Below are positions 37,401-40,400 of a DNA stretch of 43,077 bases, one piece after another. Made by a program: the position numbers. This DNA is from a virus (taxonomy: Duplodnaviria; Heunggongvirae; Uroviricota; Caudoviricetes). The stretch's first letter is position 1. Each line of letters begins with the position of its first letter. Where the stretch lies: IMG/VR virus record IMGVR_UViG_2563366968_000005, positions 1 through 43,077 of that record; one strand, 5' to 3'.

Positions 37401-40400
37401 TAAGGTTACTGGTATTGCAATGGTTTCTGATACTCGAGAAGAGTATGAGAAATACATAGATGAAAAGGTTATTGGACAAAGAACCATAGACTTAAAAGAT
37501 AAAGAATAAGAAAATCCCACCGTCAGGTGGGTTTTTTATAAGGAGTAATCATGATTTACCCATCAAACAACCCACCAGTTTGCCTGATTGGATGCCAGCC
37601 TTGCAGTTTTTATGGAATTAATTATGCCATGCTCAAGAGCCTTGTTAGCATCCAAAATGGTCGAGTCTGCTATCAGGGATGCCCACCTAATATGGGTTCC
37701 GATGTCGATATTGAACGTCTCAACGAAGCGATCAAGATCGTTATCGAGGCATTTCCCGTACTCTCTCAATCTGGCATGGTCGGCGGCTGGGGAGGCAAAG
37801 CACCATAATAGAGGATGTAACAGGAATCTTGATAATGGGTTTGCGAAACGTTCTGAGCCAGCCAGGAAAACGATATTAGCTATGGATTCAACATTGCTTA
37901 TGTTGTGAGTTCTAACGGTAACAGGGAGTGACTTAAGAAAGTTATACGCAGTAAAGCCAGCGGCAGTTTCCCCTCCCTGACTTGATATATGGATATTTAA
38001 TTCAGTTGCGCCTTGAGATAATGCGGTGAGACAGTGGTTCTGAAGTTGCCCAACAGTGGCAGTGTTAACGGGGCATAAGAAATGAATTGTGTGCAGCATT
38101 ATTTTTCATCCTTACCATACATGGTCTTTAGCGTCTCAAGCAGCGCCTCTTTGAATTTGTCAGCTTCTTGCTGAGCAAATGACTCAACTGACTTTGGCGA
38201 CCTATCTTCATCAATCGCGGCTTGCAAAATCATGACGATCTCGGAGTTAACAGAGCGACCATTTTTTGATGCTCTGACAGCAAGAGCCTCGCGTAAAGAT
38301 TCAGGGATTCTTACCGTAGTTGGAGAAATTGACACACCCTTTGCCATATCACACCTTTGGTATTCAATTTGATAGCAAAGTGTATGCAAAAAAATTTTGA
38401 CTAGATATACTCACTTTGATATCTTTTGTATTCGGAAAGAGTTGTTTGTGTGGAGGGTAACATGGAGAAAGAAATAAGTAAGATTTTGGTAAGGATGCCG
38501 CAGTCGTTAAAGGATGCTATAGGTAGCAGGGCAAAGGAAGAGTGCAGGTCGTTTAACTCAGAGGTTATCAAGCGCCTGATAGACAGCTTGAAGAGAGAGG
38601 GGGTAATGGTATGAGTAAAGAATGTTGTTTCTGCGGCATTAGCGAATCAGACGCTGATCAAACATACATTTACTCTAAAGAAACAGGTCGGATGCTGTGT
38701 AGTGACTGCGTGTTGGACATCATAAGATACAAGCATCTTGGATGTTCTGCCAGCATTAGCAATATAGGTGAAGTATATGAAGGGAAAGATATAACTGATA
38801 GATCAGAAAGTTGAAGCCCCAACTGCGGGAACAGTCAGGGCTTCGGTTGTCAGTAAATCCGTGGAGAAAAACCAACATGAATAGTATAGCAATTTTAGAA
38901 GCAGTGAACACCTCTTACGTACCATTCAACGGTCAGCAAATTATCACCGCCATGGCTGCCGGAGTTGCATATGTTGCGATGAAGCCAATCGTTGAAAACC
39001 TCGGAATGAGCTGGGGTACTCAGCAACAAAAACTTATGAAACAACTAGATAAGTTCAACTGTATTCATATGAATATGGTTGCTGCTGATGGAAAGCTTCG
39101 TAAGCTACTCTGCCTTCCTTTGAAGAAGTTAAATGGATGGCTGTTCAGCATCAACCCCGAGAAAGTTCGTGCTGACATCCGCGATAAACTGATTCAGTAC
39201 CAGGAAGAATGCTTTACTGTGCTGCATGACTACTGGACAAAGGGAAAGGCAGAAAATGCACGTAAGAAAACATCTGTTGATGACAGGACTCCGCTTCGTG
39301 ATGCTGTAAATATGCTGGTCAGCAAAAAGCATCTAATGTACCCAGAAGCTTATGCAATGATTCATCAGCGTTTCAATGTGGAAAGTATTGAAGAGCTTGA
39401 TGCATCTCAGATACCGCAAGCCGTAGAGTACATCCACAGGGTAGTGCTTGAAGGTGAGTTCATTGGCAAACAAGAGAGGAAAGTCAACGAGCTTTCTGCA
39501 AAAGAAGCAAACAGCCTTGTATGGTTATGGGATTATGCCAACCGCTCACAGGCATTATTCCGCGAACTGTATCCGGCGCTGAAACAAATTCAATCGAACT
39601 ATTCCGGCAGATGTCATGACTGCGGTTATGAGTTCTCCCGTATTATCGATATAGCGAGAGATGTTTTAATCAACCATACACGAGATGTTGATATTAATGA
39701 GCCAGACGGACCAACGAATCTTTCCGCATGGATGAGACTTAAGAATAAAGAATTACCTCCTTCAGTACATAACTACTGACAGATAACCAACGCAACGACC
39801 CAGCTTCGGCTGGGTTTTTTTATGCCCAAAATTCACCGTAGCCATGCTGCGGCGATTCCTTGTGTCTGGAGCAAATTAAATGAGAGACATTACAGCCAAT
39901 GTGATCGTATCGATGCCTTCGCAACTCTTCACTATGGCGCGTTCTTTTAAAGCCGTAGCCAATGGCAAAATTTATATCGGTAAAATTGACACTGACCCTG
40001 TAAATCCTGAAAACCAGATTCAGGTTTATGTGGAAAACGAAGACGGCTCTCACGTTCCTGTTTCGCAACCAATCATCATTAACGCTGCTGGATATCCTGT
40101 ATATAACGGACAGATTGCCAAATTCGTAACTGTGCAAGGCCATTCTATGGCTGTTTATGATGCGTATGGTGCGCAGCAGTTCTATTTTCCGAATGTGCTG
40201 AAGTATGATCCTGATCAGTTACGGCGGCAATTAGAAGACCCAGATGGAGCGAATAAATACCCAAAACTTCAGATAGCAAGATGGAGAGACAGTTATGATG
40301 TAAGAGGTTGGGGGGCTATTGGTGATGGTGTTCATGATGATACATCAGCTCTATCAGAATTACTTTCTGTTGCAACAGGTGGTGAAAAGATAGATGGGCG

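What the first reader, a model, noticed from the sequence alone, without database searches (positions are those of the whole stretch)
37563..38347. ClpP-like protease gene translationally coupled to the Mnt-like repressor gene
The mnt-like gene stop overlaps the start of a 178-aa ORF (TAATG) whose core follows the ClpP/S49 serine-protease pattern. I do not recall a protease gene fused into the mnt operon in the P22 immI region. A repressor-linked protease could act on incoming phage proteins, on Arc/Ant, or serve as the effector of an exclusion system.
Basis: partly seen in the sequence, partly recalled or inferred. Interest (0 to 1): 0.7.

Follow-up and report, generated by a model that had tools for sequence, protein, structure and literature searches.

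The report
Prophage truncated ClpP gene behind mnt
A P22-like E. coli prophage carries, as an add-on joined to its Mnt repressor gene, a shortened relative of the cell's ClpP protease that is probably made in lysogens; its fold and active-site Ser/His are clear, but what it degrades and what it does for phage or host is unknown.

Summary
A 178-aa ORF (37563-38099, minus strand) starts with an ATG that overlaps the stop of an 82-aa Mnt-type repressor gene (TAATG), and it has its own Shine-Dalgarno.

The protein belongs to the ClpP fold family (Pfam CLP_protease, 44 bits). It is not a standard ClpP, an S49 peptidase or a head-maturation protease. It lacks the N-terminal axial loops. Ser72 and His95 are invariant in 65 relatives, but Ser/Ala sits where the catalytic Asp belongs.

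The nearest characterised relative is Pseudomonas plecoglossicida PpClpP1 (PDB 9UXT; 38-40% identity, TM 0.93). That protein is a wide-pore tetradecamer and weak peptidase. It does not bind ClpX but forms more active mixed complexes with the canonical ClpP.

The gene is an optional cargo cassette. One phage has mnt followed directly by the terminator. Another has a different gene coupled to a nearly identical mnt allele (98.8% identity). Here a ~620-bp module joins at least six mnt alleles. More distant relatives are single-gene, opposite-strand inserts in other prophages.

The role I favour is a lysogen-expressed ClpP paralogue that modifies Clp proteolysis. A role in phage exclusion is untested. 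This is a new variant of a known kind and of moderate interest.

The parts
37563..38099 (-). Gene for a 178-aa N-terminally truncated ClpP-family protein (PpClpP1 type). Predicted nucleophile Ser72, general base His95, Ser146 at the position of the canonical Asp.
   Evidence: ORF. Pfam CLP_protease 44.4 bits, matching profile positions 37-180 of 182. PDB 9uxt E 1.6e-35. AlphaFold pLDDT 93.5. Foldseek TM 0.93 to 9uxt. Residue conservation. dN/dS about 0.08.
38099..38347 (-). mnt: 82-aa ribbon-helix-helix maintenance repressor gene of immI. Its last ~70 nt belong to the conserved cassette.
   Evidence: Pfam Arc 9.6e-11. Annotated as a 249-nt CDS in phage phiv205-1. The C-terminal ...ETLKTMYGKDEK is shared by alleles that differ in the N-terminal domain.
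38097..38101 (-). TAATG stop/start overlap: mnt TAA and ClpP-like ATG share base 38099.
   Evidence: Sequence. Kept in nearly all close copies that sit behind mnt.
38109..38113 (-). AAGGA Shine-Dalgarno for the ClpP-like gene, 9 nt upstream of its ATG, inside mnt.
   Evidence: Read directly from the sequence. Conserved in the junction strings.
37516..37531 (.). Bidirectional intrinsic terminator (CCCACC-loop-GGTGGG) ending both the mnt/ClpP-like transcript and the convergent P63C-domain gene.
   Evidence: Terminator scan, both strands. In phage vB_EcoP-611R6 the same stem-loop follows the mnt coding region directly, which marks the empty site.
37550..38170 (-). Approximate extent of the conserved mosaic cassette: the 3' end of mnt plus the ClpP-like gene. 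Homology to loci with other mnt alleles breaks on both sides.
   Evidence: Sliding identity of pairwise DNA alignments against six close loci with other mnt alleles.
38348..38461 (.). mnt-arc intergenic control region with a Pant-like promoter on the plus strand (38397-38425). Pmnt is not mapped; an extended -10-like TGcTATCAA lies on the minus strand at 38377-38369.
   Evidence: Promoter scan. Inverted repeats. The minus-strand element was read by eye and is an inference only.
38462..38614 (+). arc (50 aa), divergent from mnt.
   Evidence: Pfam Arc 4.4e-12. Annotated as Arc in phiv205-1.
38809..38876 (-). sar antisense RNA of immI.
   Evidence: Rfam RF00262, 95.6 bits against a gathering score of 43.
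38877..39779 (+). ant antirepressor gene (300 aa).
   Evidence: Pfam P22_AR_N 7e-45 and P22_AR_C 1.6e-27.

Best explanation
The ORF encodes a phage-borne, N-terminally truncated ClpP paralogue of the PpClpP1 type. It is carried as an optional cargo (moron) cassette attached to the 3' end of the immI maintenance-repressor gene mnt.

Expression: it has no mapped promoter of its own, overlaps the mnt stop codon and has its own Shine-Dalgarno. It is therefore most likely made from the mnt transcript, that is, in the established lysogen whenever Mnt is made. In the P22 paradigm it would be shut off when Arc represses the region.

Protein, by homology with PpClpP1: it should assemble into ClpP-like heptameric rings and tetradecamers with an ungated, wide axial pore and a Ser72-His95 active site without the canonical Asp. 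It should not dock ClpX or ClpA by itself.

The action I consider most likely is that it enters or complements the host Clp system, by forming mixed tetradecamers with host ClpP or by acting as a weak ATPase-independent peptidase on unfolded chains. This would change proteolysis in the lysogen.

What is shown and what is inferred:
- Shown here: gene structure, fold, residue pattern, cassette nature, purifying selection and distribution.
- Inferred from the homologue: oligomeric state, weak peptidase activity, no ClpX binding, mixing with canonical ClpP.
- Inferred from gene order only: expression in the lysogen.
- Unknown: the substrates and the benefit to phage or host.
For: Gene structure and coupling.

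ClpP fold:
- Pfam 44.4 bits.
- AlphaFold pLDDT 93.5, pTM 0.90.
- Foldseek best hit 9uxt with TM 0.93, rmsd 1.7 A and 38% identity, followed by canonical ClpPs at TM about 0.8.

PpClpP1 relationship and its biochemistry:
- phmmer E 1.6e-35 against 9uxt.
- PMC12900304 reports a homotetradecamer with a 42.7 A pore, about 13-fold lower peptidase activity, and Ser and His as indispensable.
- It also reports no ClpX pull-down and a heterotetradecamer with canonical ClpP that binds ClpX and is more active.

Residues:
- S72 and H95 are invariant in 65 of 65 relatives.
- The position of E. coli D171 holds A (36), S (22), G (4) or T (2).
- Positions aligned to the E. coli docking-pocket residues Y60, Y62, F82, I90, L114 and L189 are N35, H37, S57, H65, N87 and K164.
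- The model starts directly with the strand equivalent to E. coli residues 27-33.

The gene is functional: dN/dS is about 0.08 and 45 of 47 close copies are intact.

Cargo nature:
- Empty site in vB_EcoP-611R6, and a different gene coupled to a 98.8% identical mnt in S.Kent 1-2-1.
- A ~620-bp module at 97-100% identity is joined to Mnt alleles of 36-100% identity.
- The cassette travels with an mnt and ant module into a lambdoid siphophage, between tail genes L and K.
- Relatives at 52-75% identity are mostly single genes flanked on both sides by opposite-strand genes. They sit in lysis/terminase, N/erf and baseplate/tail-fibre gaps of Klebsiella, Serratia, Proteus, Pantoea, Erwinia, Chromobacterium and E. 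coli prophages.

Linkage to mnt recurs in Pectobacterium (80% identity, overlapping codons) and Providencia (66% identity, 29-nt gap).
Against: - No experiment exists on any phage-borne member. Everything biochemical is transferred from a homologue at 38-40% identity that is chromosomal, not phage-borne. In Pseudomonas it lies next to KGG stress genes.
- I could not model hetero-oligomers with E. coli ClpP.
- Pmnt was not detected by the consensus scan, so lysogen expression rests on analogy with P22.
- The favoured action does not explain why so many unrelated temperate phages keep the gene. A defence or exclusion role would explain that equally well.
Confidence: 0.55

Rival explanations
1. 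It is the effector of a superinfection-exclusion or anti-phage function. The lysogen would use an ungated protease to degrade unfolded or incoming proteins of superinfecting phages, such as ejection proteins or early proteins. Alternatively it would alter host Clp activity in a way that aborts infection.
For: - The gene sits in a slot used for lysogen-expressed cargo. A paper places sieA, orf59a and mnt together on one resistance-conferring P22 fragment. In S.Kent 1-2-1 a different, signal-peptide protein is coupled to mnt at the same position.
- Solitary relatives occupy the opposite-strand insert positions between lysis and terminase genes and between N and erf. A KAP NTPase insert lies nearby in one E. 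coli prophage.
- A wide open pore, as in PpClpP1, would admit unfolded chains without an ATPase.
Against: - No match to any of 5027 PADLOC models.
- No paper links a phage ClpP paralogue to defence.
- The homologue's peptidase activity is weak.
- The sister clade in Pseudomonas is a chromosomal stress-locus gene, not a defence-island gene.
Confidence: 0.2
2. It is an immI-specific safety device: a protease that removes leaky Ant, or turns over Arc or Mnt, so that the prophage is not induced by stray antirepressor.
For: Physical and translational linkage to mnt persists in Escherichia, Pectobacterium and Providencia P22-like prophages at 66-100% identity. The cassette also travels with an mnt and ant module into a lambdoid phage.
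Against: - Relatives at 52-75% identity have no mnt, arc or ant detectable in the flanks fetched (about 5-6 kb each side).
- Several immI-bearing phages do without the gene.
- Phage E212 keeps the gene although no mnt was detected next to it.
Confidence: 0.1
3. It is a head-maturation (prohead) protease, as annotated in phage phiv205-1 and suggested by the best PHROG hit.
For: PHROG 94 'head maturation protease' E 7e-21. The GenBank annotation of phiv205-1 uses that name. NCBIfam ClpP-related head-maturation model E 5e-13.
Against: - The NCBIfam score is 49.3 against a cut-off of 120.
- The gene lies in immI on the strand opposite to the virion genes, far from the portal, scaffold and coat genes at 24270-28735.
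- P22-type heads mature without proteolysis, because the scaffold exits intact (established knowledge).
- The same gene sits among tail genes in a lambdoid phage and between lysis and terminase genes elsewhere, on the opposite strand.
- The nearest relatives are cellular ClpP paralogues.
Confidence: 0.02
4. mnt and the ClpP-like gene form a toxin-antitoxin or abortive-infection pair, with an RHH antitoxin and a protease toxin.
For: An RHH gene directly upstream with overlapping stop and start is the usual type II toxin-antitoxin layout.
Against: - The RHH protein is a bona fide immI Mnt with divergent arc, sar and ant.
- The protease cassette combines freely with six or more Mnt DNA-binding alleles.
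- It exists alone in many prophages and in phage E212 without any upstream RHH gene.
- The same mnt allele occurs without it.
Confidence: 0.03

Closest known systems
PpClpP1 of Pseudomonas plecoglossicida (PDB 9UXT; PLoS Pathog 2026, PMC12900304)
   Same: - About 180 aa, with no N-terminal axial loop or helix.
- Ser and His conserved, with no Asp at the third triad position.
- 38-40% identity, phmmer E 1.6e-35, model-to-structure TM 0.93.
- The two groups form sister clades far from E. coli ClpP in a neighbour-joining tree.
   Different: - PpClpP1 orthologues are chromosomal genes next to KGG stress-protein and DUF6555 genes. The present clade is carried by temperate phages.
- The third triad residue is Pro in PpClpP1, and Ser or Ala here.
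- No biochemistry exists for the phage clade.
Two-paralogue ClpP systems with mixed tetradecamers (P. aeruginosa ClpP1/ClpP2, Listeria ClpP1/2, Mycobacterium ClpP1P2, Streptomyces, Chlamydia)
   Same: A second, partly defective ClpP that gains or confers activity in a mixed complex with the partner that docks the ATPase. This is the working model transferred here (papers listed; PMC12900304 discussion).
   Different: Those paralogues are host genes. Here the second paralogue would be supplied by a prophage to a host (E. coli) that, from general knowledge, has a single ClpP. Mixing with E. coli ClpP is untested.
ClpP-related phage prohead proteases (NCBIfam NF045542, PHROG 94)
   Same: Shared ClpP fold and phage origin, with significant but weak profile similarity.
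   Different: Below the family cut-off (49 against 120 bits). Not in the head gene module. The host phage type needs no head protease. The protein is closer to cellular ClpPs.
The P22 immI / sieA region: lysogen-expressed genes next to mnt
   Same: The same genomic slot and the same logic: an accessory gene riding on the region expressed in lysogens. The slot is variably empty or filled.
   Different: SieA is an inner-membrane exclusion protein unrelated to ClpP. No exclusion phenotype is known for this gene.
Lambda RexB as a prophage-expressed modulator of ClpP-dependent proteolysis (recalled from the literature, not checked here)
   Same: A precedent for a lysogen-expressed phage gene that changes what host ClpP degrades.
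   Different: RexB is a membrane protein reported to inhibit degradation. It is not a ClpP homologue.

Membership tests
ClpP / peptidase S14 (Pfam PF00574) | Profile match above the curated gathering score | tested here: met
   44.4 bits against a 20.2-bit cut-off, E 2.2e-11, profile positions 37-180 of 182.
ClpP / peptidase S14 (Pfam PF00574) | ClpP fold | tested here: met
   AlphaFold model pLDDT 93.5. TM 0.8-0.93 to solved ClpPs.
ClpP / peptidase S14 (canonical, ATPase-dependent core) | Ser-His-Asp catalytic triad | tested here: not met
   Ser72 and His95 are invariant. The Asp171-equivalent is Ser146, and A/S/G/T across 65 relatives. The neighbouring Asp145 is not conserved.
ClpP / peptidase S14 (canonical, ATPase-dependent core) | N-terminal axial loops and gating region | tested here: not met
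   The first ~36 profile positions are absent. Residue 1 aligns to E. coli mature residue 25, and the model begins with the first core strand.
ClpP / peptidase S14 (canonical, ATPase-dependent core) | Hydrophobic pocket that docks the ClpX/ClpA IGF/L loops and ADEP | tested here: not met
   Six of the aligned pocket positions are polar and conserved as such: N35, H37, S57, H65, N87 and K164. The list of pocket residues is from memory of the E. coli ClpP-ADEP structures.
ClpP / peptidase S14 | Tetradecamer of two heptameric rings | not testable with these tools
   Only single chains can be modelled here. The homologue 9UXT is a homotetradecamer.
PpClpP1-type truncated ClpP | About 180 aa, N-terminal truncation, Ser-His with a non-acidic third residue, close sequence and structure similarity | tested here: met
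PpClpP1-type truncated ClpP | No ClpX binding alone; forms a more active mixed complex with canonical ClpP | not testable with these tools
   Known only for PpClpP1 (PMC12900304).
Peptidase S49 (SppA / lambda gpC type) | Profile match to the S49 family | tested here: not met
   No S49 family among the Pfam hits at E <= 1.
ClpP-related phage head-maturation protease (NF045542) | Score above the model cut-off | tested here: not met
   49.3 bits against a cut-off of 120.
ClpP-related phage head-maturation protease (NF045542) | Gene placed in the head module next to portal, scaffold and capsid genes | tested here: not met
   The gene is in immI on the opposite strand. Portal, scaffold and P22 coat genes lie at 24270-28735.
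P22-type immI region | Divergent mnt and arc-ant with sar antisense RNA, next to the tailspike gene | tested here: met
Known anti-phage defence systems (PADLOC-DB 2.0.0) | Match to any model of a known or candidate defence protein | tested here: not met
   No family at E <= 0.01 for this ORF or its six neighbours.
Type II toxin-antitoxin pair | Obligate pairing of the effector with its upstream RHH partner | tested here: not met
   The effector occurs alone in many prophages, and the same mnt allele occurs without it.

The most novel reading that the evidence does not exclude
Temperate phages of Enterobacterales supply their host, which from general knowledge has a single ClpP, with a second, open-pore ClpP subunit that co-assembles with host ClpP in the lysogen. 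This would reprogram ClpXP/ClpAP proteolysis, and the reprogramming would be the selected function. It could act as a new kind of superinfection exclusion or defence, or as a lysogeny-stabilising or fitness factor. In P22-like phages its dose would be tied to the Mnt repressor by translational coupling.
Probability: 0.2. Interest if true: 0.75.

Novelty: new variant of a known kind. Interest (0 to 1): 0.45.

Why it matters
ClpXP and ClpAP control many decisions relevant to phages and stress, including turnover of replication proteins, repressor fragments, antitoxins and RpoS. A prophage that adds its own ClpP subunit to the cell would be a direct way to rewire that system.

The family is widespread. 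It occurs in 128 of 5426 complete E. coli genomes, including ExPEC/APEC K1 strains, and as solitary inserts in Klebsiella, Proteus, Serratia, Pantoea, Erwinia and Chromobacterium prophages. It is under strong purifying selection and has not been studied in phages. Databases label it either 'ATP-dependent Clp protease proteolytic subunit' or 'head maturation protease', and both labels are misleading.

The locus also shows that the position just downstream of mnt is an exchangeable cargo slot that uses translational coupling. That helps when reading immI regions in general.

Tried and rejected
- Head-maturation protease: rejected on score, position, strand and phage type.
- S49 peptidase: no hit.
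- Known defence system: no PADLOC hit.
- Toxin-antitoxin pair: rejected because the effector and the mnt allele each occur without the other.
- Idea that PpClpP1 itself might be prophage-borne: rejected. Pseudomonas orthologues sit in a conserved chromosomal stress-gene neighbourhood.
- Literature searches: searches for a phage or prophage ClpP paralogue, for ClpP in P22-like immI, and for phiv205-1 gave nothing specific to this gene.
- Mapping Pmnt: the consensus scan found no minus-strand promoter in the mnt-arc intergenic region. I saw only an extended -10-like element by eye.
- Antisense ORF 37551-37808 (85 aa, strong Shine-Dalgarno): not kept open in the more distant relatives, so I treat it as spurious.
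- 182-aa ORF upstream of a second E. coli lineage of the gene: only a sub-threshold Abi_2 hit, E 0.042, so it is not interpretable.
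Full report
**1. The observation**

The window is a complete P22-like prophage. It has an integrase, a C2-type repressor, a large terminase, a P22 portal, a scaffold, a P22 coat protein, an immI region and a K1-type endosialidase tailspike.

On the minus strand, ORF 37563-38099 (178 aa) begins with an ATG whose A is the last base of the TAA stop of the upstream gene. That gene is 38099-38347, 82 aa counted from the ATG that follows AAGGTG. An AAGGA Shine-Dalgarno lies 9 nt upstream of the ATG. The scan found no terminator-like site between the genes. Its only minus-strand promoter-like site lies inside the 3' part of the ClpP-like gene, downstream of its start. A bidirectional terminator at 37516-37531 follows.

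The upstream gene is an Arc/Mnt ribbon-helix-helix protein (Pfam Arc, E 9.6e-11). It lies in a canonical immI region, with divergent arc, the sar antisense RNA (Rfam 95.6 bits) and ant.

**2. What the protein is**

- **Family hits.** Pfam CLP_protease matches at 44.4 bits against a 20.2-bit cut-off, but only from profile position 37 onward. No S49 family appears. NCBIfam ClpP and head-protease models match far below their cut-offs. PADLOC finds nothing.
- **Nearest structure.** The best solved relative by far is 9uxt (E 1.6e-35). Canonical ClpPs follow at E 1e-7 or weaker.
- **Model.** An AlphaFold model built on 57 relatives is confident (pLDDT 93.5). It superposes on 9uxt with TM 0.93 and rmsd 1.7 A, and on ordinary ClpPs with TM about 0.8.
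- **What 9UXT is.** It is PpClpP1 of Pseudomonas plecoglossicida (PMC12900304):
  - an N-terminally truncated ClpP with a Ser-His-Pro arrangement;
  - a homotetradecamer with a 42.7 A pore;
  - about 13-fold lower peptidase activity than the canonical paralogue, with Ser and His indispensable;
  - no ClpX binding alone, but a mixed tetradecamer with the canonical ClpP that binds ClpX and is more active than either homo-oligomer.
- **Conserved residues.** In my alignment of 65 relatives with PpClpP1 and E. coli ClpP, Ser72 and His95 are invariant. They correspond to E. coli S97 and H122.
- **Missing Asp.** The D171 position is Ser146 here and A/S/G/T across the family. The adjacent Asp145 is not conserved.
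- **Docking pocket.** Positions aligned to the E. coli hydrophobic docking pocket are mostly polar: N35, H37, S57, H65, N87 and K164.

The protein is therefore a ClpP-fold Ser-His enzyme of the truncated PpClpP1 type. It is not a standard ClpXP/ClpAP core subunit.

**3. It is a cargo cassette, not a fixed part of immI**

- **Close copies.** Copies at 97-100% identity occur in 128 of 5426 complete E. coli genomes, always on the chromosome. RefSeq calls them 'ATP-dependent Clp protease proteolytic subunit' next to an 'Arc family DNA-binding protein'. They also occur in many IMG/VR P22-like contigs, but in only 6 of 50,697 phage records.
- **Variable mnt partner.** In these loci the gene almost always follows mnt, yet the Mnt allele varies from 36 to 100% identity while the ClpP-like gene stays at 97-100%. 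At least six N-terminal, DNA-binding Mnt alleles share the junction sequence, one of them matching my recollection of the P22 Mnt sequence. One variant junction (L058) is a base shorter.
- **Module boundaries.** Pairwise DNA alignments place the conserved module from about 38170, inside the last third of mnt, to about 37550, just past the stop.
- **Empty site.** In phage vB_EcoP-611R6 the mnt coding region runs directly into the same CCCACCTGACGGTGGG terminator, followed by the convergent P63C-type gene.
- **Alternative cargo.** In Salmonella phage S.Kent 1-2-1, a 98.8% identical mnt is followed by an unrelated 105-aa signal-peptide protein. Its ATG again overlaps the mnt stop.
- **P22.** A paper describes a plasmid carrying P22 sieA, orf59a and mnt together that confers resistance to P22.
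- **Other backbones.** The cassette also travels with an mnt and ant module into a lambdoid siphophage, between tail genes L and K. It persists in phage E212, where no mnt was detected.
- **Other genera.** Linkage to mnt is also seen in Pectobacterium (80% identity, overlapping codons) and in Providencia (66% identity, 29-nt gap).

**4. The wider family**

Relatives at 52-75% identity occur in Klebsiella, Serratia, Proteus, Pantoea, Erwinia, Chromobacterium and a second E. coli lineage. Most are single genes flanked on both sides by genes of the opposite strand. The second E. coli lineage has an additional 182-aa ORF upstream on the same strand.

They lie between the lysis cassette and terminase, between N and erf, or between baseplate and tail-fibre genes. 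These are typical positions of independently expressed accessory genes.

The gene is under strong purifying selection: dN/dS is about 0.08 against the 80% relative, and 45 of 47 close copies are intact. In a neighbour-joining tree the phage-borne Enterobacterales clade is sister to the Pseudomonas/Azotobacter PpClpP1 clade, and both are far from E. coli ClpP. The Pseudomonas genes are chromosomal, next to KGG stress-protein and DUF6555 genes, and are not in prophages. An exhaustive search of 1.84 billion cluster representatives found only 8 clusters at E <= 1e-30 and 524 at E <= 1e-10, so the tight family is small.

**5. How it most likely works**

*Shown:* gene structure, coupling signals, fold, Ser-His conservation, loss of the Asp, of the axial loops and of the docking pocket, cassette behaviour, and selection.

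*Inferred from gene order and the P22 paradigm:* the gene is transcribed with mnt. It would therefore be expressed in the established lysogen and silenced when Arc acts.

*Inferred from PpClpP1:* it forms rings and tetradecamers with an open pore, has weak intrinsic peptidase activity, and cannot recruit ClpX or ClpA alone. It may co-assemble with the host's canonical ClpP to give a complex with altered, possibly higher, activity.

I commit to this reading: a lysogen-expressed ClpP paralogue that modifies Clp proteolysis, either in mixed complexes or as an ATPase-independent peptidase for unfolded chains. My confidence is about 0.55. The confidence is much higher (about 0.85) for the narrower claim that it is a PpClpP1-type ClpP-fold peptidase carried as mnt-coupled cargo.

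The substrates and the selective benefit are unknown. One weak lead is that PpClpP1 deletion reduced growth and motility, and loss of prophage phiv205-1, which carries this gene, reduced biofilm and adhesion of an APEC strain. Nothing ties that phenotype to this gene.

**6. Rival explanations**

- **Exclusion or defence effector (0.2).** This fits the slot and the insert pattern, but has no direct support.
- **immI-specific protease for Ant or Arc (0.1).** This fits the linkage, but not the many solitary relatives or the immI regions that lack the gene.
- **Head-maturation protease (0.02).** Rejected; see the rival entries for the evidence.
- **Toxin-antitoxin pair (0.03).** Rejected; see the rival entries for the evidence.

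**7. Novelty and verdict**

The molecular kind, a truncated non-canonical ClpP paralogue, was described in 2026 for a chromosomal Pseudomonas gene. My searches found no description of a phage-borne sister clade, of its spread as an accessory insert, or of its capture as a translationally coupled cargo of mnt. That makes it a new variant of a known kind.

The gene's existence is already visible in RefSeq annotation, and its function is not established here, so interest is moderate (0.45). The most novel reading not excluded is that prophages reprogram host ClpXP/ClpAP by donating a second ClpP subunit, possibly as a form of exclusion. I give that a probability of about 0.2 and an interest of about 0.75 if true.

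Noticed in passing
L105 2427-2744 (Salmonella phage S.Kent 1-2-1, OR850876.1): A 98.8% identical mnt allele is followed not by the ClpP-like gene but by a 105-aa ORF with a signal peptide (MKRIAILLLLCLSSIANA; PHROG 19844, unknown function). Its ATG overlaps the mnt stop (ATGA). This is a second, unrelated cargo gene using the same coupled slot.
   Followed up: partly
L106 2746-2790 (Escherichia phage vB_EcoP-611R6, ON470589.1): This is the empty site. The mnt coding region runs directly into the same CCCACCTGACGGTGGG bidirectional terminator that follows the ClpP-like gene in the window, and the convergent P63C-type gene comes next.
   Followed up: yes
L002 4048-6060 (Escherichia phage PhiR12_1, PV340549.1; also PhiR12_4 and PhiR12_5): An immI-like module sits in a lambdoid siphophage between tail-tip genes L and K. 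It holds the ClpP-like gene, mnt, a small ORF in the arc position (not detectably similar to the window's Arc) and ant. Immunity-type modules are not usually found at that position.
   Followed up: no
window 36514-37509 (+) and 35971-36435 (-): Between the gene-16-like ejection gene and immI lie two further variable genes. One is a 331-aa P63C-domain protein (PHROG 2384). The other is a 154-aa protein of PHROG 2651 (unknown function). Both are present, absent or diverged among otherwise similar prophages.
   Followed up: no
window 38611-38814 (+): A 67-aa ORF between arc and ant (PHROG 7150, E 1e-49) with two Cys pairs (CCFC...CSDC). It overlaps the arc stop and is present in only some of the related immI regions.
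   Followed up: no
window 38809-38876 (-): The sar antisense RNA of P22-type immI is present and complete (Rfam RF00262, 95.6 bits).
   Followed up: yes
L099-L104 (Pseudomonas chromosomes): Orthologues of the solved PpClpP1 lie in a conserved chromosomal neighbourhood with KGG-repeat stress-protein genes and a DUF6555 gene. This hints at a stress or stationary-phase role. The PpClpP1 paper does not mention this neighbourhood in the passages searched.
   Followed up: partly
L107 2874-4061 and 5720-7051 (E. coli M7424, NZ_CP063153.1): A second E. coli lineage of the gene (52% identity; 15 of 5426 genomes) lies between the lysis and terminase genes. It is preceded on the same strand by a 182-aa ORF that gives only a sub-threshold Abi_2 hit (E 0.042). 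A KAP-family NTPase insert lies between Q and the holin gene in the same prophage.
   Followed up: partly
L066 4147-5879; L063 1403-1935: Two of 47 close copies are damaged. One is split by an insertion of about 1.2 kb, and one appears frameshifted or truncated near the 5' end.
   Followed up: no
window 37551-37808 (+): An 85-aa ORF runs antisense to the 3' end of the ClpP-like gene and has a strong AAGGAG Shine-Dalgarno just after the terminator. It stays open in some relatives but is broken in the more distant ones, so it is probably not a gene.
   Followed up: partly
window 39880-42825 (+); L001 6343-9363: The tailspike is a K1-type endosialidase with a P22 head-binding domain and a C-terminal chaperone domain, so the host is probably a K1-capsulated E. 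coli. In phage phiv205-1 the corresponding gene is annotated in two pieces separated by transposase genes.
   Followed up: no
PDB 9uxt chain sequence against PMC12900304: Counting along the deposited chain as printed by HMMER, the proline of the Ser-His-Pro arrangement is residue 150. The paper calls it Pro151, while S73, H96, S117 and D121 match my count. This is a minor numbering discrepancy.
   Followed up: no
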